From positions 19,583-83,582 of the forward strand of contig CAYGKO010000004.1 of NCBI GenBank assembly GCA_964350735.1: a DNA stretch of 64,000 nt, given 5' to 3'. Of the stretch, positions 4,009-55,587 are shown in pieces. This stretch comes from an uncultured Candidatus Saccharibacteria bacterium. Its GTDB lineage: Bacteria; Patescibacteriota; Minisyncoccia; Phycocordibacterales; UBA918. Position 1 is the stretch's first letter, and every line of letters begins with the position of its first letter. The notes beneath the pieces are model-generated. The model did no database searches, was not told the DNA's origin, and was given only the letters and a program-made list of their open reading frames with translations. Made by a program: the position numbers and the translations under genes.

Positions 4009-4010
4009 GC

Positions 4011-5333: not shown

Positions 5334-5335
5334 AT

Positions 5336-6253
5336 CTAAAATAGCAAATTATCCATTACCGCTTGTCGATCACCAAAGAAAACTTCTTGCGGTAATACTG
5401 TTTTATCTCCTAAGTATATAACAACCTCACTATCTTCGCTGATCTTGGTAGCGATATACCACGGTACTCGCAGCTCAGTATCAGACACCGGTACAAATGG
5501 CATCAACTCACCATCAATTTCGACTTTTCTGAGCTGATTAAACCCTGTGCCAACCACGGTAAGTTGGCCAGGATTTTGAAACCAGAATCCTTCTCGGTGA
5601 GCGGTAATCAGCTCAAACTGTTCACTGCCACCATACTGCCAATCTGCAGCCATGTGCTCAGCGTACCAGACATCTTTTTCAGCTTCGGTAATTGGCCGCA
5701 CCAAGATACTCCCTTCGACCATCTCAGCTACCGCACCGGCTGCTACTGATATACCACTCTCTTCACCACGTATTCGAACCTCCACCACCCCCTCGCCCAC
5801 CACAAACTTCTCTTCCTCATCAGACACATACGTTCCAAAAGACGTCCCTCGCACCGCCGCTACCATGGTTGGAGTGTATACCTCATAGACTTCGTCTTGC
5901 TCGAGGGCGCGCTCGATCCGCGACCACACCTTTCCTGCTGTTACATCTAAAGCTGAAGTTTTCTCAGTATCAGTAAATGTAAGAGTGGTGTTTTCAGCAA
6001 TTGAGCTGATTAGCTGCTCACTACTCTTAATCAGCGCCCGTCCAGTAGCGTCAGTCCCCACCACGTCACCGTCCCCAACAGGAACTTCTCCCGTCACCGA
6101 ATCATTGTTTTTACTCACTATATTCCCAAGCGTCAACAACACAGCTGGTTCATAACGCACCGAATTCTCCAGCACTGTATCCGCATCAGCCACCAACCAG
6201 TAAAACCCCACTCCACTGACCAACACCACAGAGAAACCAAGAAGGTATTTCAT
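5336..6253 (-). CDS. FecR-domain secreted protein, tandem paralog of the neighbouring gene
   Basis: 305 aa. It shares the block KVWSRIERALEQDEVYEVYTPTMVAAVRGTSFG with the neighbouring gene, and about 90 bp are near-identical at nucleotide level (about 4870-4960 versus 5820-5910). Confidence 0.55.
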   Translation of the reverse strand: MKYLLGFSVVLVSGVGFYWLVADADTVLENSVRYEPAVLLTLGNIVSKNNDSVTGEVPVGDGDVVGTDATGRALIKSSEQLISSIAENTTLTFTDTEKTSALDVTAGKVWSRIERALEQDEVYEVYTPTMVAAVRGTSFGTYVSDEEEKFVVGEGVVEVRIRGEESGISVAAGAVAEMVEGSILVRPITEAEKDVWYAEHMAADWQYGGSEQFELITAHREGFWFQNPGQLTVVGTGFNQLRKVEIDGELMPFVPVSDTELRVPWYIATKISEDSEVVIYLGDKTVLPQEVFFGDRQAVMDNLLF

Positions 6254-28750: not shown

Positions 28751-29235
28751 ATACATCAAAAGGAAATGGCTGACTCGATCAGAGATCGTGTCAGCCATCG
28801 ACAGTTGCTATGTCGGATTAGCTAGTTCCGACACCTACGAGCAGTCAACCCGTAGTTCAGCCGTGCTCGGGCCGAATAAAATTAAGTACAGGCTTCTGTT
28901 GCCAGGCGCCTGCGGACCCCGCCTTAAGCTGCGAAGCCTAAGGACTTAAGGCATTACGCCCGACCAACGAGGCCGTGCGCTCCACCCAGATTGGCTGCCA
29001 TCCACGCGGGAACCGCGTCATGACCGCCATCGCTTTTAGCACGAGTGCCATTTGCGAAAAGTGAACCGATAACGGTGGTGTCTCACCGAACAAAAGCTAA
29101 CTCCTTTAGACGTCCGTCGATCCTATTTCGACCCCTGCATCCAAACGTTCGGGTGTTTGGTGGAGCCGCCGGGTACCGCCCCCGGGTCCGATCCGTTTAT
29201 TGCGAGCGCGTTTATTGCCATAGATCCCTAGAGAT
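28751..29235 (-). ncRNA. ssrA: Candidate circularly permuted (two-piece) tmRNA gene (ssrA) with its terminator
   Basis: Read 5'->3' on the minus strand, a T-arm-like CCGGG-GGCGGUA-CCCGG is followed by the acceptor 3' strand CGGCUCC-ACCA (+29158-29166). A 22-nt spacer follows, then GGGGUCG-AAAUA-GGAUCGACGG (+29135 downward), which resembles the tmRNA 5' end. GGGGUCG and CGGCUCC form 7 pairs including G3.U. An ORF-like frame starting GCA AAU lies 81 nt in. A terminator hairpin occupies 28768-28796. Confidence 0.5.
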
Positions 29236-29271
29236 CAGTTTCATCCTAGTATTAAAATAATTGAAAGTCAA
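29236..29271 (-). promoter_or_regulatory. Putative sigma70-like promoter for the tmRNA precursor
   Basis: On the minus strand, TTGACT is followed by a 17-nt spacer and TAGGAT, immediately after the stop of the HAD-hydrolase gene. The predicted start would give an acceptor piece of about 78 nt. Confidence 0.3.
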
Positions 29272-29955
29272 CTAAATATTGTAAATTACGTCTTTTCGCT
29301 CCACTACGACCTCCCAACCTCGTCGCTCTGCCTGCTCGTATAGCTTCTGATTTGGATTAAAACAAATCGCTCGTTCAACACTTTCAAACATTGGAATGTC
29401 ACCGTCAGTATCACCAACAGCAATCGAACCAGCAAAAGACACTGCTTCCCGATCTAGTACGCGCGCCACAATATTGGCCTTATTTTCGATCAAGTGCACA
29501 TCGGTCATTTCACCCGTAAAGCAATCCTGTGGTCCAATCTCATAGATGCGACCATACACTTTATCAAAACCTTGAGTTTTACAAAATTCGTCGAGGATAG
29601 TTTTTGGAGATTGTGAGATTGCTACTACAAAATAACCTTCTCTTTTTAATTCATGAATCAGATCCCGGGTATACCGATACACATGTTTGCTTTGCTCTCC
29701 CACAACCATTCTGCCCAGATCAGCCAATGTTCCGTAATGAACGCCTCTAATATGAGTAACGTAACAGTTAATTACTGCCCGTATGTACGCATCGTAAGTC
29801 CCCTCCCGATTCCGCCACGCATGATAGGCGTCGCTGTATTCAGCTCGTGACTGCTTTGCAAACACCCCCTCAGACACCAGTTTCTCCACCAGTTCAATTA
29901 ATAAACTGGAGCGAAATACTGTGCCGTCTATGTCAAAAAATGCTACCGGTTTCAT
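29272..29955 (-). CDS. HAD-superfamily subfamily IB hydrolase (phosphoserine-phosphatase-like)
   Basis: The start is taken at MKPVAFFDIDGT (HAD motif I). Motif IV is GDTDGD. Length is 227 aa. Confidence 0.7.
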   Translation of the reverse strand: MKPVAFFDIDGTVFRSSLLIELVEKLVSEGVFAKQSRAEYSDAYHAWRNREGTYDAYIRAVINCYVTHIRGVHYGTLADLGRMVVGEQSKHVYRYTRDLIHELKREGYFVVAISQSPKTILDEFCKTQGFDKVYGRIYEIGPQDCFTGEMTDVHLIENKANIVARVLDREAVSFAGSIAVGDTDGDIPMFESVERAICFNPNQKLYEQAERRGWEVVVERKDVIYNI

Positions 29956-40500: not shown

Positions 40501-41778
40501 TCAAACAATCAGCTCTCGTAATAACTCCTGCTGTAGCTGATTGGTTGGATCATATTTGCCCAGCAATACAGATTCGAACAACTCAGGGCGCTCAGCCATG
40601 GCTGCCCACATACGTAAATTACCTTCGAGATATAACTTATCTTTTAAGAAGCAGAGTCCTGGCAATGCAGGATTACCGCCACGGAAGATTCGTACACATA
40701 AGCGCCACACATACTCTGTTGCTACAATATCAACATCATCTCGATTATGGCGACTGAAGCGATCGATGTAATACGGCTCCAAAAATGCAAAGGTCTCCTG
40801 GAAATCACGAGACTTCCCATCGAACAATCCTGTTGCTACCCCCAAGGCAAAGTATTTATCCCGGCCTGAAAATCGAAACTCACCAGCAACCAGTTGACTA
40901 CTCATAATGGCCAAACCTTCCTCTGCCGCCTGATACCCCGCCAACCCAATCGCCAAGAGCTGGAGAGGGCTTTTAAAGCCATTTTCGTACCGTCTAACGT
41001 GCACGCCAACCTCATGTGCATAGAGTTGATGTATTTTATCTGCGGAATATCGAGCTTTCTTGGGGATGAGGATTACCTGGCTTTTGTTCCGCACGTTGAT
41101 AGTATTTGTACGAGTACTCACCTTGCAGCGCCATTTTGGTGCAACTTTTTGTAGATTTTCGTTCCAAATTTCGACAACCTGATCCGCTGTATATGTGTCA
41201 TGACTCTGTTCCGTCAAGAACTGCAGCGGCTCCAGATACTTTTCTGCACTACTAATGGTGTCTGCTGTTGGCACAACAAACACATCACTATGTGAAGAAG
41301 GGTGTCTCTGAACACGTATTTGCAAATCTTTAATATACGGTGAGTGCCCGGCCATGTCAGATAAAACTGCATCAAAAATAGTCTTATCTAAAGACCCATA
41401 AAGCTTTTCTGTATACATACTGAACTGCGAATAATCCGCGGTTGCGGTTGCTGAGAGCATATCAAGGGAAAGTAGTAGTTCATCAACCTTTTGAAGATAG
41501 AGCGTTGATATTGACTTTTGGGCCTCTTCTTGTAGTATTTTACTTCGCAGGCTCAAAAGCTTGCCTTTCGCAACCGCATTCGCATTTTCATCTAGAAATA
41601 GATACTCGAATTGCGGATTAATTTTTTTACCTGAAGCCACAAAGGTATTAAAACAACTACGCATATTTACCGGCTTGATAGCATACGACCGCACTGCAGT
41701 TGGCAGAGAGAAAGAACGTAACGCCGTGAACCACTGCGCATCATTTTTCCTTAATTCTGGTTCAATCAATTTCATCAT
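40501..41778 (-). CDS. QEGLA-motif protein (DUF1704; MATCAP-like putative metallopeptidase)
   Basis: 425 aa. It has YQAAEEGLAIM (the QEGLA motif) and an HExxxH-like HEVGVH. Its length and C-terminal region match the flavohemoglobin expression-modulating QEGLA family, which is typically encoded next to RimK-like ATP-grasp ligases. Confidence 0.75.
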   Translation of the reverse strand: MMKLIEPELRKNDAQWFTALRSFSLPTAVRSYAIKPVNMRSCFNTFVASGKKINPQFEYLFLDENANAVAKGKLLSLRSKILQEEAQKSISTLYLQKVDELLLSLDMLSATATADYSQFSMYTEKLYGSLDKTIFDAVLSDMAGHSPYIKDLQIRVQRHPSSHSDVFVVPTADTISSAEKYLEPLQFLTEQSHDTYTADQVVEIWNENLQKVAPKWRCKVSTRTNTINVRNKSQVILIPKKARYSADKIHQLYAHEVGVHVRRYENGFKSPLQLLAIGLAGYQAAEEGLAIMSSQLVAGEFRFSGRDKYFALGVATGLFDGKSRDFQETFAFLEPYYIDRFSRHNRDDVDIVATEYVWRLCVRIFRGGNPALPGLCFLKDKLYLEGNLRMWAAMAERPELFESVLLGKYDPTNQLQQELLRELIV

Positions 41779-41795
41779 TATAATGACTATAAGTT

Positions 41796-42776
41796 ATGGC
41801 AGCTAAAGTTACAAATCTACAAATACTCAAACGGGCCGCAAAAAAGTTCGGATACAGCTACGGTCTCATTGATACCCCTTATTCAGAGGCTATTTATGTT
41901 ACTGATGGTGAGCGCCATTTTATCTCTCGTTCCAAAACAAAATATGGGATGTACCCAACTAACTATAAGTTCGGTGAGCACCTAGTCGATGACAAGGCAG
42001 TGACCAAACGAGTTCTAAAAAAATTTGGCTTTCGGGTTATTAAAGGCAAGGCTTTTCATATTGCCCCTCCCTACAAGCAGGCCATTACGATCAAACAAGC
42101 TGATCGGGTTCCAGCGGCGTATAAGTACGCAAAAAACATCACGTACCCTGTGTTTGTAAAACCAAACTCTGGGTCCCGCGGACTGCACGCAAGACTTATT
42201 TTCAATGAAAGTGCTTTCAAAAAACATGTTGCTACCATGAAAGCTGACAAGGTTAAATCATTTATCGTTGAGAAGTTCACTCAGAGACCAGAGTACCGCA
42301 TTTTTGTAGTAGGTGGTAAAGCTCAATTCATGTATCGCAAACAACGGGTTTCGATCACTGGTACCGGAACCCACACCATCGACGAACTCATTGAACTCTC
42401 TAACCATATCCCAGATGAAGAATTCCTCGGTCAACTACTACGAAATCAAAAGAAAACCCGTAATACAGTCCTCAGTTCAGACCATGAGCTTGTGCTGCAA
42501 GAAACAGCCAATATCAGTCTAGGTGCTGAAATTATTGATTACCGAGAAAAAATCCCTAAGTCTATCGACAAATGGACTAATCGACTCTACCAAACTGTTG
42601 GATTAGAAGTATTTGGCGTTGACGTATTCACTAAAGGTGAATGGGATGAACCAAATCAATATCTCATCATTGAAGTCAACTCTTCACCAGCCCTGTCTGG
42701 GATATACAACAAGGGACACCAAGAAAAGGTCTACAAGATCTGGCAAAGAATCATGACAAAATTCTTCGTTTCTTAA
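41796..42776 (+). CDS. RimK-like ATP-grasp ligase (alpha-L-glutamate ligase-related), paralog 1
   Basis: 326 aa with the ATP-grasp C-terminal signature LGVDVFTKGE...YLIIEVNSSPALSG and a central VFVKPNSGSRG. It is divergent from the QEGLA gene with only 17 bp between the ORF starts. Confidence 0.65.
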   Translation: MAAKVTNLQILKRAAKKFGYSYGLIDTPYSEAIYVTDGERHFISRSKTKYGMYPTNYKFGEHLVDDKAVTKRVLKKFGFRVIKGKAFHIAPPYKQAITIKQADRVPAAYKYAKNITYPVFVKPNSGSRGLHARLIFNESAFKKHVATMKADKVKSFIVEKFTQRPEYRIFVVGGKAQFMYRKQRVSITGTGTHTIDELIELSNHIPDEEFLGQLLRNQKKTRNTVLSSDHELVLQETANISLGAEIIDYREKIPKSIDKWTNRLYQTVGLEVFGVDVFTKGEWDEPNQYLIIEVNSSPALSGIYNKGHQEKVYKIWQRIMTKFFVS

Positions 42777-42989
42777 GACCTCAACGCAGCTAAACACTCC
42801 ATCAAGAAATCATAACTGTACAATACCTGCATTCAGCATGCAGGTGTCTCATCCGCTTTTATACATAATGTCATAATACAGAGCTTGGAATAGCCACCTC
42901 GTGGTATGCTCTACAAGCATAGATGCTCGTTATTTTTAGATTTCTGGCACCAGAAGATTACTAATCCCCCACCTAAAACCAAATTAACC

Positions 42990-43943
42990 ATGGCTCGCGT
43001 CTTACACATTGAACTACTACTCAAAGCTGCCCGGAAGATGAAACTGACTGCCATGGACGTCTCGGATGCCGGCGATAAGTCAAAGCTATTTATTAGCAAT
43101 GAATCTCTCTGCTATGTTGCTCATGATGACTATTTATATCCTGATGTCTCGATGTGGCAACGTCGCCTAATGGCAAACAAAATACTGACCCAACAAGTAC
43201 TGACCAAGTTAAAATACAAAACAATTAAGTCGTTTGATTTCAGCCCTCGAGACTACGACACTGCATCTGCTTTAGTAAAAGCGGTGAAGAAGTGCCCTGT
43301 AAAGTACCCTGCTATCACTAAGATAAACAGTGGTACGTACGGCTTAGGTATTGTTTTTCTTTCTAATGAAAAAGAACTAATTAAAAGCGTAACTGAATTA
43401 CATAGTGAGAAGAAACGCTTTATGATTCAGCCTGTACACTGGCATGATGAGTATCGAATTACCTTTATCGGAGGAAAACCTATTATGGTTCATAAAAAGC
43501 GTCTACCCCAAATTACCGGGGATGGTAGGTCAACTGTAGCAAGCCTACTGGAGAAACAACCTACAGAATTAAAGGACCAAAACTTCATTGCCTGGAACCT
43601 TGCCAAGCATAAACTTACCCCAAAAAGTATACTGGATGAAAATCAATTTTTAGCTACACACATCATCAAAAAACGGACCCCTGACTACTACAAAGTTACT
43701 AACTTCCCGACAGAGGTTGTGGCTTGGGGGAAGCAACTACTGACCGATCTCTCCATTAAAACCTGCGCCATTGATTTCATGGCTCCTAAAGGCCTCGAGC
43801 ATCCCGACCAGTTCATAATCTTCGAATTGAATTCCAATCCGCACTGGACGTATGTCATTGATGAACTCAACGACCGTGACACCCCTGTAAACATCTGCCA
43901 ACATATCTTAACTTCATATTTTGGAAGAAGTACAAAACGCTAA
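42990..43943 (+). CDS. RimK-like ATP-grasp ligase, paralog 2
   Basis: It carries AIDFMAPKGLEHPDQFIIFELNSNPHW and ITKINSGTYGLG. It is about 50% identical to paralog 3. The start is taken at MARVLH by alignment with paralog 3, although the ORF opens at 42906. Confidence 0.6.
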   Translation: MARVLHIELLLKAARKMKLTAMDVSDAGDKSKLFISNESLCYVAHDDYLYPDVSMWQRRLMANKILTQQVLTKLKYKTIKSFDFSPRDYDTASALVKAVKKCPVKYPAITKINSGTYGLGIVFLSNEKELIKSVTELHSEKKRFMIQPVHWHDEYRITFIGGKPIMVHKKRLPQITGDGRSTVASLLEKQPTELKDQNFIAWNLAKHKLTPKSILDENQFLATHIIKKRTPDYYKVTNFPTEVVAWGKQLLTDLSIKTCAIDFMAPKGLEHPDQFIIFELNSNPHWTYVIDELNDRDTPVNICQHILTSYFGRSTKR

Positions 43944-43984
43944 CCGACGAGAACTTATCTATACTAACCTAATCTAAATTACCC

Positions 43985-44929
43985 ATGGCTAACATTAAGC
44001 ACGCTGGTTTCATAGTGAAAGAAGCCCGGAAAATGGGTGTAACTGTGAGTGATATTTCTAACTTGAAAGATCAGACTAAAATTCTCCTTAGTAACGGCAA
44101 AAAACGCTTCATATTAAGTGATGAACATTTATACCCTGATGTTACTGTTTGGCAGCGTCGGATGATGTGCGACAAAATGTTGACGCAAAAGATTCTCACC
44201 AAACTCAAGTATAAAACCATTCATTCTTTTGATTTTAATAGTCGTAAATACAACAGCCAGAAAGAATTTCTGACAGCCATTAAGAAATGTCACCTGTCCT
44301 ACCCTGTCATTACGAAAGTAAACAAAGGAACCTACGGACTTGGTGTCACCTTCATTGCTAACGAAGCAGAACTTCTTCATAGCGCCAAAGAACTTTTTGT
44401 CGCCCGGCAACGCTTCATGATCCAGCCGATGCTCTGGCACACAGAATATCGCGTCACTTTTATTCACGGCGCACCAATCATGGTCTACAAAAAACTACTC
44501 CCCCAGGTAGTTGGTAACGGCGCAGCTACAATGGGGGAACTGCTGTCAAAACAAGCAGACGATCAAAAAGATGCGAACTTCATCAAATGGAATCTTTCAC
44601 GCCAAAAATTGGGACTTAAGAGTGTCTTAGCAGCTGGTGAAATATTTGAAACTCATATCGTTAAGAACGTCACTCACGAATACTACAAAGACGCTAAGTT
44701 TCCAAAAGAAGTACTTGGCTGGGGACAATCACTACTCCGCGACTTATCAATCAAAACAGTTGGAGTGGACTTCATGGCCCCAGCTGGACTTGATCACTCT
44801 GAACAGTTCATCATTTTTGAACTTAATTCCAATCCACACTGGACTCACGTAATCGAGGAGCTTAATGACTATGAAACCCCACGCAAAATCAGTCGCCATA
44901 TTCTGAAGTCTTATTTTGGAGCAAAATAA
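43985..44929 (+). CDS. RimK-like ATP-grasp ligase, paralog 3
   Basis: 314 aa with VGVDFMAPAGLDHSEQFIIFELNSNPHW. It is a tandem duplicate of paralog 2. Confidence 0.65.
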   Translation: MANIKHAGFIVKEARKMGVTVSDISNLKDQTKILLSNGKKRFILSDEHLYPDVTVWQRRMMCDKMLTQKILTKLKYKTIHSFDFNSRKYNSQKEFLTAIKKCHLSYPVITKVNKGTYGLGVTFIANEAELLHSAKELFVARQRFMIQPMLWHTEYRVTFIHGAPIMVYKKLLPQVVGNGAATMGELLSKQADDQKDANFIKWNLSRQKLGLKSVLAAGEIFETHIVKNVTHEYYKDAKFPKEVLGWGQSLLRDLSIKTVGVDFMAPAGLDHSEQFIIFELNSNPHWTHVIEELNDYETPRKISRHILKSYFGAK

Positions 44930-48909: not shown

Positions 48910-49611
48910 TTAATTCTCTGGCAATCTATCTTCTTTTGAACCATAGAGATCAGCAATGATCGCAGCGCGTTTTTTGAAATTACGTACAGAGAACAGAAGT
49001 GCACCTAGAGTGAATAGTCCTTGCCCAACAGCGATTGGCACATGCCAAGACGCTTCCAGGCTCACTCCTGGATATAAATACAAAAAGAGTAGAGCCGCTA
49101 CATTAAAGAGAACCGTCAGTGGTATCAGCACATACAATCCCAACTTTTGCTCACGCAGTAGCACTTCGTAAAAATCAGCTCCGGCTGGAGTTGCAGCAAT
49201 TTCTACCCTCTGCTCCTTTACAATGGACAGGTCTACGAGGTACAGCAAGCCTCCGAAAATCGATATTAGTAAGAACACCCAGAACCACACCAAAGTATCC
49301 GTCACGTTTGAAAACGCCACCACCTGGAAGAACCCAATCACAAAGTATAAAAAGGTGTGCTGCAAGCGAATTGGCCAATCAATAAAACTAAGAGTGTGAC
49401 TGATCGCTTCAGACCAGAAAAACAAAGCAAATAAAAAACCAGTCAAAATATACGGCCAGTATTCCAGATACTCCAGATCTACAACTGAAGCTGCCGATAC
49501 TGCTAATGCACTAAGTGCTACCCCTTGCACCACACTCACCAAGACCAGCTCAATAGTGACAACCAACTCCCCTAATGTTCCTCGTTCGGTAAAGATTTTT
49601 GCTTTGGACAT
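48910..49611 (-). CDS. Hypothetical polytopic membrane protein
   Basis: 233 aa with about 6 TM helices. Confidence 0.4.
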   Translation of the reverse strand: MSKAKIFTERGTLGELVVTIELVLVSVVQGVALSALAVSAASVVDLEYLEYWPYILTGFLFALFFWSEAISHTLSFIDWPIRLQHTFLYFVIGFFQVVAFSNVTDTLVWFWVFLLISIFGGLLYLVDLSIVKEQRVEIAATPAGADFYEVLLREQKLGLYVLIPLTVLFNVAALLFLYLYPGVSLEASWHVPIAVGQGLFTLGALLFSVRNFKKRAAIIADLYGSKEDRLPEN

Positions 49612-49614
49612 ACT

Positions 49615-50403
49615 TTAGAAGTGTGCGACTGCTAACGTCGTATGTTTTATCGCTTCATCAACCACCTTCCGCATCACTGCCACCGTAGCTACCGGGTTGG
49701 CTCCAACTGCAGTTTCATTCGAAAGCATCGTCGCACTCGCACCATCAAGCACAGCATGGGCAATATCTGAAATATCGGCCCGTGATGGATCAGCATCATC
49801 AATCATTGATGTTAGCATTTCAGTTGCCACAATAGCCGGCTTTCCGACAGCATTACAACGTCGTAAAATATCTTTTTTTACAAACGGTAGGGTCTCAATC
49901 GGAATTGCATCCCCCAAGTCACCCCGAGCAATCATAATACCGTCGGCAGCTGTGATAATCTCATCCAGATTATTGAGTGCTTCCGAACGTTCAATTTTGG
50001 CAATTACTTTAGTCGACACTCGGTGATCTTGCAGCAACGCTTTCAATTCCAAAATATCAGTCGCATCTTTTACAAACGACAAGGCAACGTACTCTAAATC
50101 ATGCTTAACCATAGCAGCTAAATCAGAGCGGTCTTTGTCAGTAATAACCGATGCCGATTGGTCAAAAGTATGGACCACACCTTGCTGCACCCTAGGACCA
50201 GACAAATCTTGAATAATTGGCACCTGTAACCCAAGCCTGACAGCTGCTTGACGCACATCATGCACAAACCGCTGATGTTCTTCGTGTGTACCCCACGAGA
50301 AATTAAGTCGCGCTATCGATAAACCAGCTTCCATCATATTGGTGATGATGGCGCTATCTTTTGAAGCCGGACCAATCGTGGCCACAATTTGAGTAGTAGA
50401 CAT
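49615..50403 (-). CDS. pyk: Minimal pyruvate kinase (A/TIM-barrel domain only; B and C domains absent)
   Basis: 262 aa. It has the PK N-terminus (QIVATIGPAS...ARLNFSWGTHEEH) and PK signature (VIAKIERSEALNNLDEI, MIARGDLGDAIPIE). There is no lid domain insertion after GPRVQ and no C-terminal allosteric domain. Confidence 0.7.
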   Translation of the reverse strand: MSTTQIVATIGPASKDSAIITNMMEAGLSIARLNFSWGTHEEHQRFVHDVRQAAVRLGLQVPIIQDLSGPRVQQGVVHTFDQSASVITDKDRSDLAAMVKHDLEYVALSFVKDATDILELKALLQDHRVSTKVIAKIERSEALNNLDEIITAADGIMIARGDLGDAIPIETLPFVKKDILRRCNAVGKPAIVATEMLTSMIDDADPSRADISDIAHAVLDGASATMLSNETAVGANPVATVAVMRKVVDEAIKHTTLAVAHF

Positions 50404-50406
50404 ACG

Positions 50407-52881
50407 TTAAGAGTAGATAGTAATAAGTCTATTATACTTCACCGCTCGTTCTGACTGACTCGGTGCACCTGCCTTTAAACCAAATGCTTTTGTGCCAAAT
50501 GCTAAATCAGCAATAAAATTATCATCCGTCTCACCACTACGGTGGCTCACAATGCACCAAATTTTATTTTCATAGGCAAGTTGCATGGTGGCCAGTGTAT
50601 CGCTCAGCGTCCCGATCTGATTAGGCTTAATAATCAACGCATTCACTGCATTACAGTCGATCGCTTTTTGTAACTGCTCAACATTTGTAGTGGTCAAATC
50701 ATCACCGATGGTCAGCACCCCTGGGTGCGCCTCGTGATAGGAGGCAAAAGCCTTCATATCATGCTCTTGATATGGATCTTCGACCATTTGTAGCATTGGG
50801 AATTTTTTATGGAGTTCAGTATAAAAATCAAGCATACCTTCGACACTAAGGATTTCTCCTCCTAGTGCATATGCTTCCTTTTTATAAAACGAACTAGCGG
50901 CCACATCAGTTCCAATCAAAATTGGAACTTCACACTGAGCTCGTTTAATCGCTGTGGCAATATGCGCAAACGGTTCGAATACATCATGACTCGGAATCAC
51001 AAAGCCACCTTCATCACCGACAGTGATCTCTTTGTGTTTGTAAGTCTCATGCAATACCTCCCGCAGCTCTCGCTGCACTTGTTTTACAGCCGCTAGTGCT
51101 GCCTGTACATCATCAGTGTCTGGAATAATTTGATGTTCTTGAATTGCACTACCCACCTTGGCGTGTTGACCACCATTAATGAGATTGACGAATAATCGCG
51201 GTGCAACTGACTGCTCTCGATATGAAAAGAGTTCTGCGATATGCTGCCAGGTTTCGACTCCCTTCACTGCTGCAGCCGCTTTACACGCAGCCACACTAAT
51301 ACCAAGTGCAAGATTCCCGCCAATAGCAGCGAAGTTTTTAGTCCCATCAATTGTATGCAACGCGGCATCAAGCGCAGCCTGGTCGGTCACGTCCATACCC
51401 AGCAGCACTGACTGCACTTTCTTTTGTAGTATCTGTACTGCTTTGTGGGCAGGAAGCACCGCCACTTCATACTCACCAGTACTGGCCCCACTTGGTACGC
51501 TGAACGTACCAGTTTCGCCACCAGCTATGACACTCACTTGAACAGTTGGCTTCCCTCGGGAGTCTTGTATCACTCGTGCTTCTACGTCAGTGATTGCTGT
51601 ATCGGTCAATTCCGACTGCGCAGTAATGAGGAGCATCAAGTCTGACACATTTGACTCCAGCAATCCGGTTTTAATATGCCCTCCAGTTGTATTGAAAAAC
51701 GGGAAGGAATCAAAGCGCTCTAAATGATCAGCAATTGACAAGGCTCGCTCTGCTGCGCGGATAACAATTTCTTCATCAGCAATCGCTCCAGCCATGTCAG
51801 TATTATCACGTCCATCAGACGCTAGCGAAACAAAGGCTTGATTAGGCTCAAGTGCTGACAACATACTGAGCGCTAAATAACTATTGCGACCACCAGTCCC
51901 ATCCGCTGCTTCAGTCACCATTACTTTTGTTTCTCCACCCATACAGCGCGCTACACCGCTACCCGCTTCTTCTAAGAGTAATTCTTTAGTTTCAGGCGCT
52001 GTGGTGTACTGAGTAGCGGACACCAGGTCAGCTCGATATGATAATGCTTCGGCTTTTTCCTGCATTGCATTCAAGGCTGTGACATTCGAAGCAATCGTGA
52101 AGTTATGCACTCGCTCAAAATACTTTGGCTCCTTTGGGGTCTCCACTAGTCGAAATGAACCCAGCGCATATTTCTCAATCAGCGCTTGGGCGTCATGAAT
52201 CGTGGTGGTGTCAAAACAGGTCGGACCAGAGGCTACAGCTGCTATATCACCACCTGGCACATCAGAAAAAACTAACCCTGCGACCGTTGCTGGGTAGAGA
52301 GCTTTAGCTAGTCCTCCACCTTTAAGGTGTGAGATATGCTTGCGGACAATATTCAATTCTTCAATCGTGCCGCCGCTTTGTAGGAATGATTCAAACAACT
52401 GAATCCCTTGAGTGCACTCCCCCATCGATGAGCACAACAGCGCGGAACCTCCTCCAGACACAACTACTAGTACCAAGTCTCGCTCTTTAGCAGTGCGTGC
52501 CACTTCTTCAATGTGTTTGGTGGCAGTATAGTTTTGTTGCGATGGTAATGGATGCGTACCGGCATACGTATCAACTACCTGACAAACTTTTTCGGCCACG
52601 CCAATCACTGCACCATTTTTTACTCGGCCATTTAAAATCTGCTCCAGAGTGTGCGCAGCAGTACAAGCCACCTTGCCAAACCCGATGACGTACACATGTT
52701 CGTGCTCACGTAGGTCAAATTGATGCCCTTGAATCTGTAACACATCATCACAGAGAGTAATATTGTTGTTAAGAACTGTCTTTGTATCAATCGCTTGCAG
52801 GCCTGCTTCTGCAATCAATAAAGCATCCCGCCGCAGGGGTGAAGTTGCTAGTTCGTCAAAATTTTTAATAATCTGCCTCAT
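50407..52881 (-). CDS. Fusion protein: glycerate 2-kinase (MOFRL/GckA family) fused to enolase
   Basis: 824 aa. Roughly the first 400 aa carry DUF4147/MOFRL features (VVVSGGGSALL, C-terminal TG..SNVSDLMLLI). The enolase part follows (IQDSRGKPTVQVSV...SVPSGASTGEYE and C-terminal SHRSGETDDNFIADLAFG...PSQSERAVKYNRL). It is one uninterrupted frame whose start overlaps the upstream dehydrogenase stop by 4 bp. Confidence 0.8.
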   Translation of the reverse strand: MRQIIKNFDELATSPLRRDALLIAEAGLQAIDTKTVLNNNITLCDDVLQIQGHQFDLREHEHVYVIGFGKVACTAAHTLEQILNGRVKNGAVIGVAEKVCQVVDTYAGTHPLPSQQNYTATKHIEEVARTAKERDLVLVVVSGGGSALLCSSMGECTQGIQLFESFLQSGGTIEELNIVRKHISHLKGGGLAKALYPATVAGLVFSDVPGGDIAAVASGPTCFDTTTIHDAQALIEKYALGSFRLVETPKEPKYFERVHNFTIASNVTALNAMQEKAEALSYRADLVSATQYTTAPETKELLLEEAGSGVARCMGGETKVMVTEAADGTGGRNSYLALSMLSALEPNQAFVSLASDGRDNTDMAGAIADEEIVIRAAERALSIADHLERFDSFPFFNTTGGHIKTGLLESNVSDLMLLITAQSELTDTAITDVEARVIQDSRGKPTVQVSVIAGGETGTFSVPSGASTGEYEVAVLPAHKAVQILQKKVQSVLLGMDVTDQAALDAALHTIDGTKNFAAIGGNLALGISVAACKAAAAVKGVETWQHIAELFSYREQSVAPRLFVNLINGGQHAKVGSAIQEHQIIPDTDDVQAALAAVKQVQRELREVLHETYKHKEITVGDEGGFVIPSHDVFEPFAHIATAIKRAQCEVPILIGTDVAASSFYKKEAYALGGEILSVEGMLDFYTELHKKFPMLQMVEDPYQEHDMKAFASYHEAHPGVLTIGDDLTTTNVEQLQKAIDCNAVNALIIKPNQIGTLSDTLATMQLAYENKIWCIVSHRSGETDDNFIADLAFGTKAFGLKAGAPSQSERAVKYNRLITIYS

Positions 52882-53885
52882 ACTGATACCTGATTTGCCG
52901 CTACTCCAGCTGCAAATGACTGGATGTTACTCACCGTAATATCAGTGATTTCCCGCTTGGCTTCAGCGGTGTTAAAAGCAATATGTGGTGTCACGATCAC
53001 ATTCGACATATCAATGAGCGCATGATCGGCCACTAGGGTTTCCCATAGTGTAGCGTCGACATTTTGTGCGACCAGTAACTCAGCCTCCTCGCGTAATTCG
53101 TGCTCTCCTTCAAGCACATCAAGTCCGGCTCCAGCTATATGTCCGGACTGCAGTGCCTCTACCAAAGCTTTGGTGTCGACCACTTCGCCACGAGCGGTAT
53201 TTATTAAATAGCTACCCGACTTCATCAAAGCTAGTTTTTCTGCATTTAGTAGATGGTGTGTAGCGGGAATAGCAGGTACGTGCAACGTCACGATATCAGC
53301 CTGAATCAATACTTCATCAAGCGACTGATATTGCAGCGCCTGCTCATTTGCGAACCCCTCATCTGGCTGTACGTCATAGGCGACTACATTCATACCGATC
53401 CCTCTTGCGATCTCACATACACTGCGTCCGATCGCGCCGGTACCCACCACCCCTAAAGTCTTTCCGTACAGATCAAACCCTTCATACGTTGCAAAATTTG
53501 TTACCCCTGCATCTTTCTGCATATCAGTATACGAACGAAAGGCGTTCCGCGACAACGCAAACATGAGCGCAATCGCATATTCAGCGACCGTACGCGTGCC
53601 ATAGTGCGGGACGCGGCACACTACCATCCCTCGTTCAGCTGCCGCCGCAACATCAATATGATCATATCCAGCCGAACGCGCGGCAATCAATTTTAAATTT
53701 GGAAATAAACTAAGTGTTTCAGTAGTAACTGGAGAGTCAACAAATACACTTAAAACCTCCATCGCTTCACGATCGGCAACAGATAATTCCTCGACACTTT
53801 CAACCACCACCCACTCATGAGCAGGCGCTGTTGCTGCCAAAATATCGATCTCGCCTGGATACGGTCGAACATAGCCTATTTTCAT
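52878..53885 (-). CDS. D-isomer-specific 2-hydroxyacid dehydrogenase (glycerate dehydrogenase/hydroxypyruvate reductase-like)
   Basis: 335 aa with NAD-binding GKTLGVVGTGAIGRSV and the catalytic His region in PHIAFNT. Confidence 0.8.
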   Translation of the reverse strand: MKIGYVRPYPGEIDILAATAPAHEWVVVESVEELSVADREAMEVLSVFVDSPVTTETLSLFPNLKLIAARSAGYDHIDVAAAAERGMVVCRVPHYGTRTVAEYAIALMFALSRNAFRSYTDMQKDAGVTNFATYEGFDLYGKTLGVVGTGAIGRSVCEIARGIGMNVVAYDVQPDEGFANEQALQYQSLDEVLIQADIVTLHVPAIPATHHLLNAEKLALMKSGSYLINTARGEVVDTKALVEALQSGHIAGAGLDVLEGEHELREEAELLVAQNVDATLWETLVADHALIDMSNVIVTPHIAFNTAEAKREITDITVSNIQSFAAGVAANQVSV

Positions 53886-54107: not shown

Positions 54108-54117
54108 ATGCTAACAG

Positions 54118-54188
54118 CTGCCCGACAGGGATTCGAACCCCAGTTGACGGTACCAGAAACCGCAGTCCTACCACTAGACGATCGGGCA
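54118..54188 (-). tRNA. tRNA-Gln (anticodon CUG), 71 nt
   Basis: A manual fold gives acceptor TGCCCGA/TCGGGCA, D-arm GTCT-AGTGGTA-GGAC, anticodon stem GCGGT/ACCGT with loop TTCTGGT, and T-arm TGGGG-TTCGAAT-CCCTG. G37 is unusual and there are two G.U pairs in the T-stem. Confidence 0.6.
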
Positions 54189-54249: not shown

Positions 54250-54891
54250 TTACCGCTTGCTGACATCTATCTTTTCGATCAATTCCCAGGCGCAGGTATG
54301 CGACGCTGCGTTCTCATTAAAATGTAGATGAAACACTTCAGTATTTTTAGTCCGGAGAGTATTCAAAATACCTTTGGCATACTGATAAAACGACAAATCA
54401 ATCTCGTTACAGATCAACTCTACAAACAAATTCATAAAGATGGCGTGTGACACTACCACCACCCGATCCCCTTTACTCTCTCCGATCGCATCTTTGGCAT
54501 CGTGAATCCGATTACGAATATCAAACATGTTCTCAGCGCCTTCGTGTTGCCAATCGTTATTATCTCGCTGCCAGAAAAAGTCTTTCAGATATCTAAATGA
54601 TGCCAGCGAAGCATGTTTCTTGCCATACAAACTATCGGGTCGACGGAACTCAGCTACACTTGGTAGCGGCATGATCGGTACATTGACATGCGACTCGATA
54701 ATCTCAGCTGTCTCACGGGCGCGAACCAACGGACTGGCAAAGAGCGTATCAATCGACTGGCTCACCAAATACTGCCCCACCGTGTGCGCCTGCTGCCTCC
54801 CCTTCTCATTAAGGGGTGATTCGGGCAGTTGATGCACGTGCTTGGCATTGAAGGCCGTCTGACCATGTCGTACAAAAAAGATCTCCATCAA
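54250..54891 (-). CDS. Histidine phosphatase superfamily protein (phosphoglycerate mutase-like), paralog A
   Basis: 213 aa with the N-terminal catalytic RHG motif (IFFVRHGQTAFN). Confidence 0.7.
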   Translation of the reverse strand: MMEIFFVRHGQTAFNAKHVHQLPESPLNEKGRQQAHTVGQYLVSQSIDTLFASPLVRARETAEIIESHVNVPIMPLPSVAEFRRPDSLYGKKHASLASFRYLKDFFWQRDNNDWQHEGAENMFDIRNRIHDAKDAIGESKGDRVVVVSHAIFMNLFVELICNEIDLSFYQYAKGILNTLRTKNTEVFHLHFNENAASHTCAWELIEKIDVSKR

Positions 54892-54960: not shown

Positions 54961-55587
54961 TTATTCAGCGAAGTGCGCGTGGTCGTTCCAAGTCAAAAGC
55001 TGCCAATTTGTTTCAGGACTATACTGAAAAACAGTTATACCCGTATTCGACAGTCGCAATGCTTTATACATCTGGGCCCACAGCTCTGGGGTTGGAACGC
55101 CAGAACTTAATACATACGTGGCAAAAAACTTTGCAATATACTCATGGGAAACCACCATAGTATCTCCAGATTTTTCTTGTAGCAGATCAAATGCTGTTTT
55201 GGTGCGATCGGTTAATTCTGTAAAGCTTTCTGAATCTTCAAACTTCCAATCAGCTTCATGCAGATTTGCCACTTCTGCTTCTCTATACATGACATACTCG
55301 GGAAGAGTTTTATCCCAACCATCAAAACGAGAAGGACGCTTACGCTCGGCAAACAAATCACTTACTTCAACGCTGTGTGAAGTAATCGATGCGACAGCTG
55401 CTGCCGTGTCAGAAGCCCGAGCTGCTGGACTTGAATAGAGTGTCTCAAACTGCAAACTGCCGGCTCGTGCCGCAAGCAAGGACGCCTCCTTTACTCCCAA
55501 ATCATTCAACGGTGTCTGGGCTGATTGCTGAATATTACCTACTGAACCGTCAGTCGCTCCATGACGGACAAAATACACTCGTTTCAT
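54961..55587 (-). CDS. Histidine phosphatase superfamily protein (phosphoglycerate mutase-like), paralog B
   Basis: 208 aa with the RHG motif (VYFVRHGATDGS). It is a tandem paralog of the preceding gene. Confidence 0.7.
   Translation of the reverse strand: MKRVYFVRHGATDGSVGNIQQSAQTPLNDLGVKEASLLAARAGSLQFETLYSSPAARASDTAAAVASITSHSVEVSDLFAERKRPSRFDGWDKTLPEYVMYREAEVANLHEADWKFEDSESFTELTDRTKTAFDLLQEKSGDTMVVSHEYIAKFFATYVLSSGVPTPELWAQMYKALRLSNTGITVFQYSPETNWQLLTWNDHAHFAE

What the first reader, a model, noticed from the sequence alone, without database searches (positions are those of the whole stretch)
49615..50403. Pyruvate kinase reduced to the catalytic TIM barrel (no B lid domain, no C-terminal allosteric domain)
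The 262-aa protein has the PK N-terminal motif and the PK active-site signature, and both align without gaps to canonical enzymes.

It lacks the roughly 100-aa B-domain, which is normally inserted after the GP(E)IR segment. It stops right after the A-domain, so the effector-binding C-domain is also missing. Canonical bacterial PKs are about 470 aa.

A minimal PK would be unregulated. It might need a partner, or it might act as a different PEP-utilising enzyme.
Basis: partly seen in the sequence, partly recalled or inferred. Interest (0 to 1): 0.55.

Follow-up and report, generated by a model that had tools for sequence, protein, structure and literature searches.

The report
Natural lidless, single-domain pyruvate kinase
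This 262-residue gene is an intact, conserved pyruvate kinase that keeps only the catalytic barrel; it belongs to a large, apparently undescribed family in Parcubacteria (candidate-phyla-radiation bacteria) that always sits beside or is fused to the preceding glycolytic enzymes, which is unexpected because the missing lid domain normally helps bind the nucleotide.

Summary
Window 49615-50403 (- strand) encodes a complete 262-aa protein that is the pyruvate kinase (PK) A-domain barrel only. A 12-residue stub replaces the ~98-residue B/lid domain, and there is no C domain.

It is not a fragment or pseudogene.
- At least 115 stand-alone homologues of 255-277 aa exist, plus at least 120 versions fused to a phosphoglycerate mutase (dPGM). 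All named sources are Parcubacteria/Paceibacterota lineages.
- They share the same short stub and keep every A-domain catalytic and ligand residue.
- AlphaFold gives an intact (beta/alpha)8 barrel (pLDDT 93) that superposes on solved PK A domains (TM about 0.9).

The gene is last in a tightly packed unit: D-2-hydroxyacid dehydrogenase, then a glycerate-2-kinase::enolase fusion, then the mini-PK. That neighbourhood recurs in 12-13 independent loci.

Best reading (confidence 0.62): a functional, unregulated, K+-independent PK making pyruvate and ATP from PEP at the end of a compact lower-glycolysis module. Family-specific substitutions (Arg at position 117, His77 to Trp, an invariant His in the stub) plausibly compensate for the lost lid contacts.

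I found no description of natural lidless PKs in the searchable literature. The closest precedent is an engineered lidless E. coli PykF. Activity is untested. I rate it a new variant of a known kind, interest about 0.6.

The parts
49615..50403 (-). Complete mini pyruvate kinase gene (262 aa plus stop): A-domain barrel only
   Evidence: ORF. Pfam PK barrel E=1e-73. TIGR01064 293 bits, just under its 306.4 cut-off. AF2 pLDDT 93.3, pTM 0.91, eight barrel strands. Foldseek TMq 0.87-0.93 to PK A domains.
50185..50403 (-). Residues 1-73: barrel strands 1-3. Carries T9-G11-P12 (TIGP), R32/N34/S36/W37 (= rabbit R72/N74/S76/H77) and D66-L67-S68-G69-P70-R71-V72-Q73 (= D112...E117, R119).
   Evidence: Alignment to 2e28 residues 4-71. 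Invariant or near-invariant columns. Codon positions checked.
50149..50184 (-). Residues 74-85: the short stub that replaces the ~98-aa B/lid domain. It contains the family-invariant His78 (codon 50170-50172). AF2 models residues 72-79 as a low-confidence beta-hairpin.
   Evidence: Stub length is 17-21 residues (P70 to T88) in all lidless homologues against 86-116 in canonical PKs. H78 is invariant in 115/115 stand-alone and 120/120 fused members. pLDDT is about 49 for residues 71-80.
49618..50148 (-). Residues 86-262: barrel strands 4-8. Carries K136, E138, D162, T194, S228, E230 (= rabbit K269, E271, D295, T327, S361, E363). Ends 8 residues after the last A-domain helix, with no C domain.
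   Evidence: Alignment to 2e28 residues 170-342. Invariant columns. No PF02887 hit.
50407..52881 (-). Upstream gene in the same unit: 824-aa fusion of glycerate 2-kinase (DUF4147 + MOFRL) and enolase. Its stop TAA is 3 nt before, and in frame with, the mini-PK ATG.
   Evidence: Pfam and NCBIfam hits; eno TIGR01060 322.8 bits, above its 300 cut-off. Junction sequence. The same gene order recurs in related loci.
52878..53885 (-). First gene of the unit: D-isomer-specific 2-hydroxyacid dehydrogenase. It overlaps the next gene by 4 nt. Substrate not assignable; D-lactate dehydrogenase or glycerate/hydroxypyruvate reductase are the candidates.
   Evidence: Pfam 2-Hacid_dh_C E=1e-57. All NCBIfam hits are below their cut-offs. 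Adjacent to the mini-PK on the same strand in 12 of 13 independent loci.
48910..49611 (-). Downstream 233-aa hydrophobic protein, 3 nt after the mini-PK stop. No family hit. Probably co-transcribed here but not a conserved partner.
   Evidence: No Pfam or NCBIfam hit. The gene downstream of the mini-PK differs or lies on the other strand in L005-L008.

Best explanation
The gene encodes a functional but minimal pyruvate kinase from a Parcubacteria/Paceibacterota (candidate phyla radiation) bacterium. It consists only of the (beta/alpha)8 A domain.

It descends from the K+-independent branch of bacterial PKs. It has lost both the B/lid domain, now replaced by a ~12-residue stub, and the C-terminal effector domain.

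Proposed mechanism (inferred):
- PEP and Mg2+ bind as in any PK, through R32, K136, E138, D162, T194, S228 and E230.
- The invariant Arg71, at the position of rabbit Glu117 (Lys117 in K+-independent PKs), supplies the positive charge that K+ provides in K+-dependent enzymes.
- ADP binds on the A-domain half of the nucleotide pocket (P12, N34, W37 in place of His77).
- The invariant His78 of the stub, and/or Arg71, stands in for the lost lid contacts R119 and K206.
- With no C domain the enzyme is not allosterically regulated. At most it could dimerise through the A-A interface.

It performs the last step of a co-transcribed module: glycerate to 2-phosphoglycerate (glycerate 2-kinase), to PEP (enolase), to pyruvate plus ATP (mini-PK). 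The adjacent D-2-hydroxyacid dehydrogenase most simply reduces pyruvate to D-lactate.

Shown here: the architecture, the conservation, the fold, the synteny and the fusions. Inferred: catalytic activity, the phosphoryl acceptor, the compensating roles of R71/W37/H78, and the dehydrogenase substrate.
For: - Homology and fold: Pfam PK barrel E=1e-73. PDB PKs score E=1e-62 and downwards. The AF2 barrel has pLDDT 93.3 and pTM 0.91. Foldseek returns only PKs, with TMq 0.87-0.93 and rmsd 1.2-2 A.
- Purifying selection on the active site: R32, N34, D66, K136, E138, D162, T194, S228 and E230 are invariant across 115 stand-alone homologues at 50-72% identity. They are also invariant across 120 fused homologues at 37-51% identity.
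- A real family, not a truncation: the top 120 database clusters are nearly all 255-277 aa (seven shorter). 19 of the 151 sequences compared (this protein plus the 150 best 50%-identity representatives) are lidless.
- Pathway context: the order 2-Hacid_dh, glycerate kinase, enolase, mini-PK is conserved in L001, L005-L008, L012 and L015. Enolase is adjacent in 11 of 13 independent loci and the dehydrogenase in 12 of 13.
- Fusions with the preceding enzymes: GK-enolase-miniPK (P0130), GK-miniPK (P0131), miniPK-enolase (P0156), and at least 120 clusters of dPGM/miniPK fusions in both orders.
- K+-independent ancestry: the DLxGP[KR] motif (L113, positive residue at 117) is shared with the nearest canonical PKs. 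The signature is described in PMC4284704 and PMC8835810. Aeropyrum pernix PK has Arg at position 117 and is K+-independent (PMC4374775). In the K+-independent M. tuberculosis PK, ligands induce no B-domain movement (PMC8835810).
- Precedent for lidless catalysis: an engineered E. coli PykF without its lid is reported by its title as retaining catalysis (Sugrue et al. 2020, PMID 32978636, listed). The paper could not be read here; the detail is from my memory of the abstract.
Against: - The lid residues that contact the nucleotide in rabbit PK are missing. R119 bonds the beta-phosphate, K206 the ribose, and D177 a water on Mg-ATP (PMC8835810). Here R119 is Gln73 (near-invariant), and K206 and D177 are deleted.
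- From memory, the engineered lidless E. coli enzyme had only low activity.
- No enzymatic data exist for any family member.
- The proposed compensating residues are inferred from conservation only. The stub is modelled at low confidence (pLDDT about 49), and I could not inspect coordinates.
- TIGR01064 scores 293, just under its 306.4 equivalog cut-off.
- Starting from glycerate, the module is ATP-neutral (one ATP spent, one made), so its physiological role is unclear.
- Whether the same genome also has a canonical PK, PPDK or PEP synthase could not be checked beyond the 64-kb window.
Confidence: 0.62

Rival explanations
1. It is a PK catalytic subunit that works only within a complex. The neighbouring or fused enzyme (the GK-enolase fusion here, dPGM elsewhere) docks over the open active site, acts as a surrogate lid, and channels PEP.
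For: The mini-PK is invariably adjacent to or fused with enolase, GK or dPGM. The tight 3-nt in-frame junction with the enolase gene suggests coupled translation. An exposed active site would benefit from shielding.
Against: Fusion partners differ (dPGM, enolase, GK) and occur on either end of the barrel (97 dPGM-first, 23 PK-first). That is hard to reconcile with one specific lid-like docking geometry. AF2 of a dPGM-miniPK fusion gives confident domains but pTM 0.59 and a disordered linker, so no defined inter-domain packing. No conserved small extra ORF is present in the operons.
Confidence: 0.15
2. It is no longer an ADP-dependent kinase. It is a PEP-utilising barrel with another phosphoryl acceptor. 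It could pass phosphate through the invariant stub His78, or to a protein histidine such as the catalytic His of dPGM, as the lidless PEP-binding barrels of Enzyme I and PPDK do. Or it could simply hydrolyse PEP.
For: Loss or replacement of three nucleotide-contacting lid residues. An absolutely invariant His on a flexible hairpin next to the active site. Very frequent covalent fusion to a histidine-phosphatase-superfamily dPGM, whose mechanism uses a phospho-histidine.
Against: The A-domain half of the nucleotide pocket is conserved or strengthened (P12 and N34 kept, His77 to Trp). There is no detectable similarity to the PEP-utilisers family. Fusions to enolase and GK are explained just as well by ordinary pathway clustering. 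ATP yield at the PK step should be under strong selection in fermentative CPR bacteria (inference).
Confidence: 0.1
3. It has been repurposed to a nucleotide-independent side reaction of the PK barrel, such as oxaloacetate decarboxylation or pyruvate enolisation, or an aldolase/lyase-type reaction like its HpcH/HpaI relatives.
For: There is a weak HpcH/HpaI match (21.7 bits). Canonical PKs are known to decarboxylate oxaloacetate without nucleotide (established knowledge, not tested here).
Against: The HpcH match is below its cut-off of 25. All PEP phosphate-binding and proton-donor residues (R32, K136, T194, S228) stay invariant, which a decarboxylase would not need. The context is enolase plus a 2-PG-forming enzyme, which makes PEP the substrate.
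Confidence: 0.05
4. It is a decaying remnant or an annotation/assembly artefact of a canonical pyk gene.
For: None beyond the short length.
Against: The ORF is uninterrupted and packed between neighbours. An identical protein occurs in an independent Logan assembly. Hundreds of homologues from many samples have the same length and an invariant active site.
Confidence: 0.01

Closest known systems
Canonical K+-independent bacterial pyruvate kinases (e.g. Mycobacterium tuberculosis PykA, PDB 5ws8/5wrp; Pseudomonas aeruginosa PykA, PDB 6qxl)
   Same: The A-domain barrel is the same (TMq 0.91-0.93, 30-40% identity). All A-domain catalytic and metal ligands are shared. Both have the DLxGP[K/R] motif with Leu113 and a positive residue at 117 (PMC4284704, PMC8835810).
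   Different: There is no B/lid domain: R119 becomes Gln, and D177 and K206 are deleted. There is no C effector domain. His77 is replaced by Trp. Total length is 262 aa against about 470 aa.
Engineered lidless E. coli PykF (PK TIM+Reg; Sugrue et al. 2020, Eur Biophys J 49:761, PMID 32978636)
   Same: A PK barrel with the B domain excised. It is reported to keep some catalytic activity. The title was verified in the reference lists seen; the details are from memory.
   Different: It is a laboratory construct that keeps the C domain, the tetramer and allostery, and has no compensating substitutions. The protein here is a naturally evolved, conserved family. It also lacks the C domain and carries family-specific changes (R71, W37, Q73, H78).
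C-domain-less PKs (A+B only, about 337-355 aa; e.g. NCBIfam NF005234 / PRK06739, 352-aa model)
   Same: They have lost the allosteric C domain. Several are among the nearest relatives of the mini-PK (P0142, P0168, P0173, P0209, P0253). Absence of the C domain in some PKs is noted in a family review (PMC10176505).
   Different: They retain a full B/lid domain of about 99 residues, including R119.
PEP-binding TIM-barrel domains of Enzyme I and pyruvate phosphate dikinase, and HpcH/HpaI aldolases (other PEP/pyruvate-binding TIM barrels)
   Same: They are lidless (beta/alpha)8 barrels that bind PEP or pyruvate with Mg2+. In Enzyme I and PPDK the open barrel is approached by a mobile phospho-histidine domain (established knowledge).
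   Different: There is no significant sequence match: no PEP-utilisers hit, and the HpcH hit is below its cut-off. The sequence and the predicted fold of the mini-PK match PKs specifically.

Membership tests
Pyruvate kinase (EC 2.7.1.40; Pfam PF00224, TIGR01064) | Significant match to the PK barrel (A-domain) model | tested here: met
   PF00224 scores 248.8 bits against a cut-off of 30, E=9.7e-74, in two stretches flanking the missing B domain.
Pyruvate kinase (EC 2.7.1.40; Pfam PF00224, TIGR01064) | Full-length equivalog score (TIGR01064 trusted cut-off) | tested here: not met
   293.0 bits against a cut-off of 306.4. All other NCBIfam PK models are also below their cut-offs, because about 200 residues of each model are unmatched.
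Pyruvate kinase (EC 2.7.1.40; Pfam PF00224, TIGR01064) | A-domain substrate, metal and catalytic residues (rabbit R72, N74, S76, D112, K269, E271, D295, T327, S361, E363) | tested here: met
   The equivalents are R32, N34, S36, D66, K136, E138, D162, T194, S228 and E230. They were mapped through the motif alignment to 2e28 and to 150 representatives. They are invariant or near-invariant in 115 + 120 homologues. The rabbit numbering of K269, E271, D295 and T327 is from established knowledge. The numbering of positions 74, 76, 77, 112, 113, 117 and 119 is confirmed in PMC4374775 and PMC8835810.
Pyruvate kinase (EC 2.7.1.40; Pfam PF00224, TIGR01064) | B/lid domain inserted after beta-strand 3, supplying nucleotide contacts R119, D177 and K206 | tested here: not met
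   There are 18 residues between P70 and T88, against 86-116 in canonical PKs. Position 119 is Gln. D177 and K206 have no equivalents.
Pyruvate kinase (EC 2.7.1.40; Pfam PF00224, TIGR01064) | C-terminal alpha/beta effector domain (PF02887) | tested here: not met
   There is no PF02887 hit. The protein ends 8 residues after alignment position 255. This domain is not universal in the family (PMC10176505).
Pyruvate kinase (EC 2.7.1.40; Pfam PF00224, TIGR01064) | Intact (beta/alpha)8 barrel fold superposable on solved PKs | tested here: met
   AF2 gives pLDDT 93.3 and pTM 0.91, with eight strand-helix units. All 50 Foldseek matches listed are PKs, with TMq 0.86-0.93.
Pyruvate kinase (EC 2.7.1.40; Pfam PF00224, TIGR01064) | Catalyses PEP + ADP to pyruvate + ATP | not testable with these tools
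   This needs an enzyme assay or complementation. The only support here is context: enolase is adjacent or fused in 11 of 13 independent loci.
K+-independent PK branch (Leu113 / Lys117 signature) | Leu at position 113 and a positively charged residue at position 117, instead of Thr113 / Glu117 | tested here: met
   L67 and R71 in D66-L-S-G-P-R71. In the lidless family Arg is invariant at this position in the 115 stand-alone and all lidless representative sequences, and 119/120 in the fused forms. The nearest canonical PKs have K or R. The signature is defined in PMC4284704 and PMC8835810. Arg at 117 occurs in the K+-independent A. pernix PK (PMC4374775).
HpcH/HpaI aldolase / citrate-lyase family (PF03328) | Match above the Pfam gathering threshold | tested here: not met
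   21.7 bits against a cut-off of 25, over residues 93-159 only. The RipC model gives E=0.001, 18.6 bits against a cut-off of 375.

The most novel reading that the evidence does not exclude
The lidless barrel may not hand phosphate directly to ADP. The absolutely invariant His78, on the flexible stub that replaces the lid, could act as a phospho-histidine relay. Alternatively, the open active site could phosphorylate a protein histidine such as the catalytic His of the dPGM so often fused to it. Either would make this an Enzyme I / PPDK-like ping-pong PEP-utilising enzyme that evolved from a pyruvate kinase.
Probability: 0.07. Interest if true: 0.9.

Novelty: new variant of a known kind. Interest (0 to 1): 0.6.

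Why it matters
- For enzymology. The B/lid domain is regarded as part of the PK catalytic apparatus, because it closes over the substrates and contributes R119, D177 and K206 to nucleotide binding. A large, conserved natural family that dispenses with it would show what the minimal PK catalytic unit is. It also offers natural compensating substitutions (Arg117, Trp77, the stub His) to test.
- For the metabolism of candidate-phyla-radiation bacteria. PK was reported in only about a third of CPR genomes, and the authors allowed that divergent enzymes may escape HMM thresholds (PMC7304191). These 262-aa proteins fall just under the TIGR01064 cut-off. NCBI names them inconsistently as 'hypothetical protein' or 'pyruvate kinase'. 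Part of the apparent gap in ATP-yielding lower glycolysis may therefore be an annotation artefact.
- For pathway organisation. The compact, often fused module (a 2-PG-forming enzyme, enolase, mini-PK, a 2-hydroxyacid dehydrogenase) is a neat example of genome streamlining. It suggests unregulated, possibly channelled, flux from 2-PG to a fermentation product.

Tried and rejected
- Pseudogene or truncated fragment: rejected. The ORF is continuous, the neighbours are tightly packed, an identical protein occurs in an independent assembly, and length is conserved across the family.
- Lid or C domain encoded separately nearby: rejected. The downstream 233-aa and 252-aa proteins have no family hit and are not conserved next to the gene in other loci. 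No conserved small ORF occurs in the operons. The 118-aa ORF in L006 lies between GK and a shortened enolase call and is unique to that locus.
- dPGM as a rigid surrogate lid: not supported. AF2 of a fusion (P0297) gave pTM 0.59 and a disordered linker. This is weak evidence, since no PAE or coordinates were available.
- Second PK, PPDK or PEP synthase in the window: none found by tblastn or by Pfam scans of 44 ORFs.
- Single origin of the lidless clade: a neighbour-joining tree puts all 19 lidless representatives in one group together with one canonical PK (Jaccard 0.95). Bootstrap support is poor (exact monophyly in 1 of 30, mean Jaccard 0.85). The shared W37/R71/Q73/H78 signature argues for one origin, but the tree does not prove it.
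- Substrate of the 2-hydroxyacid dehydrogenase: NCBIfam cannot discriminate PGDH, glyoxylate reductase and D-LDH; all are below their cut-offs.
- The genome-contig scan with the single protein returned only 3 loci.
- The metagenome scan with the alignment mostly returned canonical PKs, because the chosen pattern (MIARGDL) is shared. Only 5 of its 80 loci were lidless.
- The afdb50 fold library was unavailable.
- Literature searches for natural lidless PKs and for PK, GK or PGM fusions in Parcubacteria or CPR found nothing. Sugrue 2020 and Schormann 2019 are not held.
- Taxon names for the nearest canonical and A+B-only relatives were not available.
Full report
**1. The observation**

The window has a 262-codon ORF at 49615-50403 on the minus strand (ATG start, stop at 49615-49617).
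- It matches the Pfam PK barrel domain at E=9.7e-74, but in two stretches.
- It matches TIGR01064 'pyruvate kinase' at 293 bits, just under the 306.4 equivalog cut-off.
- Against solved PKs, residues 3-73 align with residues 4-~71 of Geobacillus stearothermophilus PK (2e28), and residues 86-254 align with residues 170-342.
- So about 98 residues, the B or lid domain, are replaced by 12. The chain ends just after the A domain, and there is no PK_C hit.
- In an alignment with the 150 best representatives of a 1.84-billion-protein library, this protein has 18 residues between P70 and T88. Canonical PKs have 86-116 there. It has 8 residues after position 255, where canonical PKs have about 100-230.

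**2. It is a real protein family**

- The 120 best 90%-identity clusters are nearly all 255-277 aa (seven shorter) and 50-72% identical.
- The named ones come from Candidatus Kaiserbacteria, Parcubacteria and Paceibacterota MAGs.
- The identical protein, with the same neighbours, is present in an independent Logan assembly.
- In the alignment of 115 of these homologues (A1), the following are invariant: T9, G11, P12, R32, N34, D66, G69, P70, R71, H78, K136, E138, R139, D162, T194, S228 and E230.
- AlphaFold2 run on this alignment gives pLDDT 93.3 and pTM 0.91, with eight strand-helix units. Only the stub (residues about 71-80) has low confidence.
- Foldseek against the PDB returns only pyruvate kinases, superposing on their A domains at TMq 0.87-0.93 and rmsd 1.2-2 A.

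**3. Active site**

K+-site residues:
- Rabbit muscle K+ ligands are Asn74, Ser76, Asp112 and the Thr113 carbonyl, with Glu117 nearby (PMC4374775).
- The window protein has N34, S36, D66, L67 and R71 at these positions.
- Leu113 with a positive residue at 117 is the published signature of K+-independent PKs (PMC4284704 and PMC8835810). Arg at 117 occurs in the K+-independent Aeropyrum pernix PK.
- The nearest canonical PKs in the library all carry DLxGP[K/R][I/L/V]R. The mini-PK therefore derives from the K+-independent branch.

Catalytic and Mg2+ residues:
- The catalytic Lys, the Mg2+ ligands and the proton-donor Thr (rabbit K269, E271, D295, T327; established knowledge) are K136, E138, D162 and T194.

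Lost lid contacts:
- R119 hydrogen-bonds the nucleotide beta-phosphate, K206 the ribose, and D177 a Mg-ATP water. His77 lines the adenine pocket (PMC8835810).
- In the lidless family, position 119 is Gln (near-invariant) and positions 177 and 206 do not exist.
- His77 is Trp in most members.
- A His in the stub (H78 here) is invariant in 115/115 stand-alone and 120/120 fused members.
- I infer, without a structural test, that R71, W37 and H78 compensate for the lost lid contacts.
- In the K+-independent M. tuberculosis enzyme, substrates and effector induce no B-domain movement (PMC8835810). That makes lid loss less implausible in this branch.

**4. Context**

On the minus strand the order is as follows.

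| Coordinates | Gene |
|---|---|
| 52878-53885 | D-2-hydroxyacid dehydrogenase; 4-nt overlap with the next gene |
| 50407-52881 | 824-aa glycerate-2-kinase (DUF4147 + MOFRL)::enolase fusion; stop TAA, then CGT, then the ATG of the mini-PK |
| 49615-50403 | mini-PK; 3-nt gap to the next gene |
| 48910-49611 | 233-aa hydrophobic protein with no family hit |

A terminator-like hairpin follows the upstream tRNA-Gln.

In 13 independent related loci:
- the dehydrogenase is adjacent on the same strand in 12; the 13th contig is truncated;
- enolase is adjacent in 11;
- glycerate kinase is present in 8;
- in 3 others a dPGM is fused to the mini-PK.

Glycerate 2-kinase and dPGM therefore look like alternative suppliers of 2-phosphoglycerate to the same enolase, mini-PK, dehydrogenase module. 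Because the dehydrogenase accompanies the mini-PK whichever supplier is present, D-lactate dehydrogenase acting on the product is the simplest reading. NCBIfam cannot decide between the candidate substrates.

**5. Fusions**

Pfam domain scans of the library representatives show these architectures.

| Protein | Length | Architecture |
|---|---|---|
| P0130 | 1092 aa | GK-enolase-miniPK |
| P0131 | 690 aa | GK-miniPK |
| P0156 | 679 aa | miniPK-enolase |
| P0140 | 483 aa | dPGM-miniPK |
| P0149 | 482 aa | miniPK-dPGM |

- A search with P0149 shows at least 120 clusters of dPGM/miniPK fusions (97 dPGM-first, 23 PK-first). They come from Zambryskibacteria, Nomurabacteria, Paceibacterota, Minisyncoccia and 'Patescibacteria group' MAGs.
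- All are lidless with a 17-21-residue stub and carry the same W37/R71/Q73/H78 signature.
- The fused domain has classic dPGM motifs: RHxESEWN, NERxYG, HGNS.
- Caveat: P0130 and P0131 are singletons from short Logan contigs. In the window, the enolase stop and the PK start are in frame, so a stop-codon error could create such a fusion. The dPGM and enolase fusions are too numerous, or have the opposite domain order, to be artefacts of that kind.

**6. Interpretation**

The evidence converges on a functional PK that uses PEP made by the adjacent enolase. Having no C domain, it is unregulated, and it is K+-independent.

The open question is how ADP is held and the active site shielded without a lid. 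I examined three ideas.
- Compensation within the barrel and stub. This is favoured, given the family-specific invariant residues.
- A neighbouring or fused enzyme serving as a lid. This is weakened by the variable fusion partners and orders, and by AF2 of a dPGM-miniPK fusion giving pTM 0.59 with a disordered linker.
- A change of acceptor or a phospho-histidine relay. This is speculative. It is suggested only by the invariant stub His and the frequent dPGM fusion.

An engineered lidless E. coli PykF is reported to retain some catalysis (Sugrue et al. 2020; title seen; details from memory). So lidless turnover is chemically possible.

**7. Comparison with what is known and novelty**

[quoted passage not shown] The passages I read mention no natural loss of B (PMC10176505).
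- Six full-text searches for lidless or truncated PKs, or for PK fusions, in Parcubacteria, Patescibacteria or CPR found no description.
- A survey of about 1000 CPR genomes found PK in only about a third. Its authors explicitly allowed for divergent enzymes missed by HMM thresholds (PMC7304191).
- The sequences themselves are in public databases, named variously 'pyruvate kinase', 'hypothetical protein', 'histidine phosphatase family protein' or 'phosphoglycerate mutase'.
- I therefore rate this a new variant of a known kind. It is homologous to and most likely works as a PK. It fails two architectural features of the canonical family (lid and C domain) and narrowly fails the TIGR01064 cut-off.

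**8. Limits**

- There are no activity data.
- I had no access to model coordinates, so the position of H78 relative to the active site is unknown.
- The rest of the genome could not be searched for a canonical pyk, ppdK or ppsA.
- The single origin of the lidless clade is suggested by the shared signature and a neighbour-joining grouping (Jaccard 0.95), but bootstrap support is weak.
- The library does not hold most subscription-journal papers, so a prior description cannot be excluded.

Noticed in passing
window 50407-52881 (-): An 824-aa single polypeptide fuses an archaeal-type glycerate 2-kinase (DUF4147 + MOFRL) to a full enolase (TIGR01060 322.8 bits, above cut-off). The same fusion is called in L005 (828 aa). 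The two genes are separate in L006-L008. I found no literature on this fusion.
   Followed up: partly
P0140, P0149, P0282-P0399; loci L009-L011: In other Parcubacteria (Zambryskibacteria, Nomurabacteria, Minisyncoccia and others) the lidless PK is covalently fused to a bona fide dPGM, in either order (97 dPGM-first, 23 PK-first; at least 120 clusters). Sources annotate these as either 'pyruvate kinase' or 'phosphoglycerate mutase'.
   Followed up: yes
window 54250-54891 (-) and 54961-55587 (-): Two tandem histidine-phosphatase-superfamily genes lie just upstream of the operon, beyond tRNA-Gln 54117-54188. They are only distantly related to the dPGM domain fused to mini-PKs elsewhere (at most 31% identity over short stretches, or no hit). 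Whether they are mutases or phosphatases is open.
   Followed up: partly
window 28885-29275 (-): There is a strong match to the permuted (two-piece) tmRNA models: alpha_tmRNA RF01849 at 223.9 bits and tmRNA_permuted RF04321 at 107.8 bits. This is in what appears to be a Parcubacteria genome. ARAGORN did not report a tmRNA here.
   Followed up: no
window 40501-44929: A MATCAP-like (microtubule-associated tyrosine carboxypeptidase family) protein at 40501-41778 (-) sits next to two or three ATP-grasp/RimK-like ORFs (41796-42776, 42906-43943, 43985-44929, + strand). This may be a peptide-tail ligation and trimming system.
   Followed up: no
window 2095-6253 (-): A CHASE2-sensor adenylate/guanylate cyclase (637 aa) is followed by two FecR-domain proteins. 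That is a signalling module in an otherwise reduced genome.
   Followed up: no
P0133 (1051 aa, library representative): A canonical PK is fused to an adenylate kinase domain (PF00406). It was seen among the top library hits and is unrelated to the window.
   Followed up: no
P0142, P0168, P0173, P0180, P0182, P0209, P0233, P0239, P0253: Many A+B-only PKs of 337-355 aa (no C domain, full lid) are among the closest canonical relatives of the lidless family. They may represent an intermediate stage of domain loss. No taxon names were available for them.
   Followed up: partly
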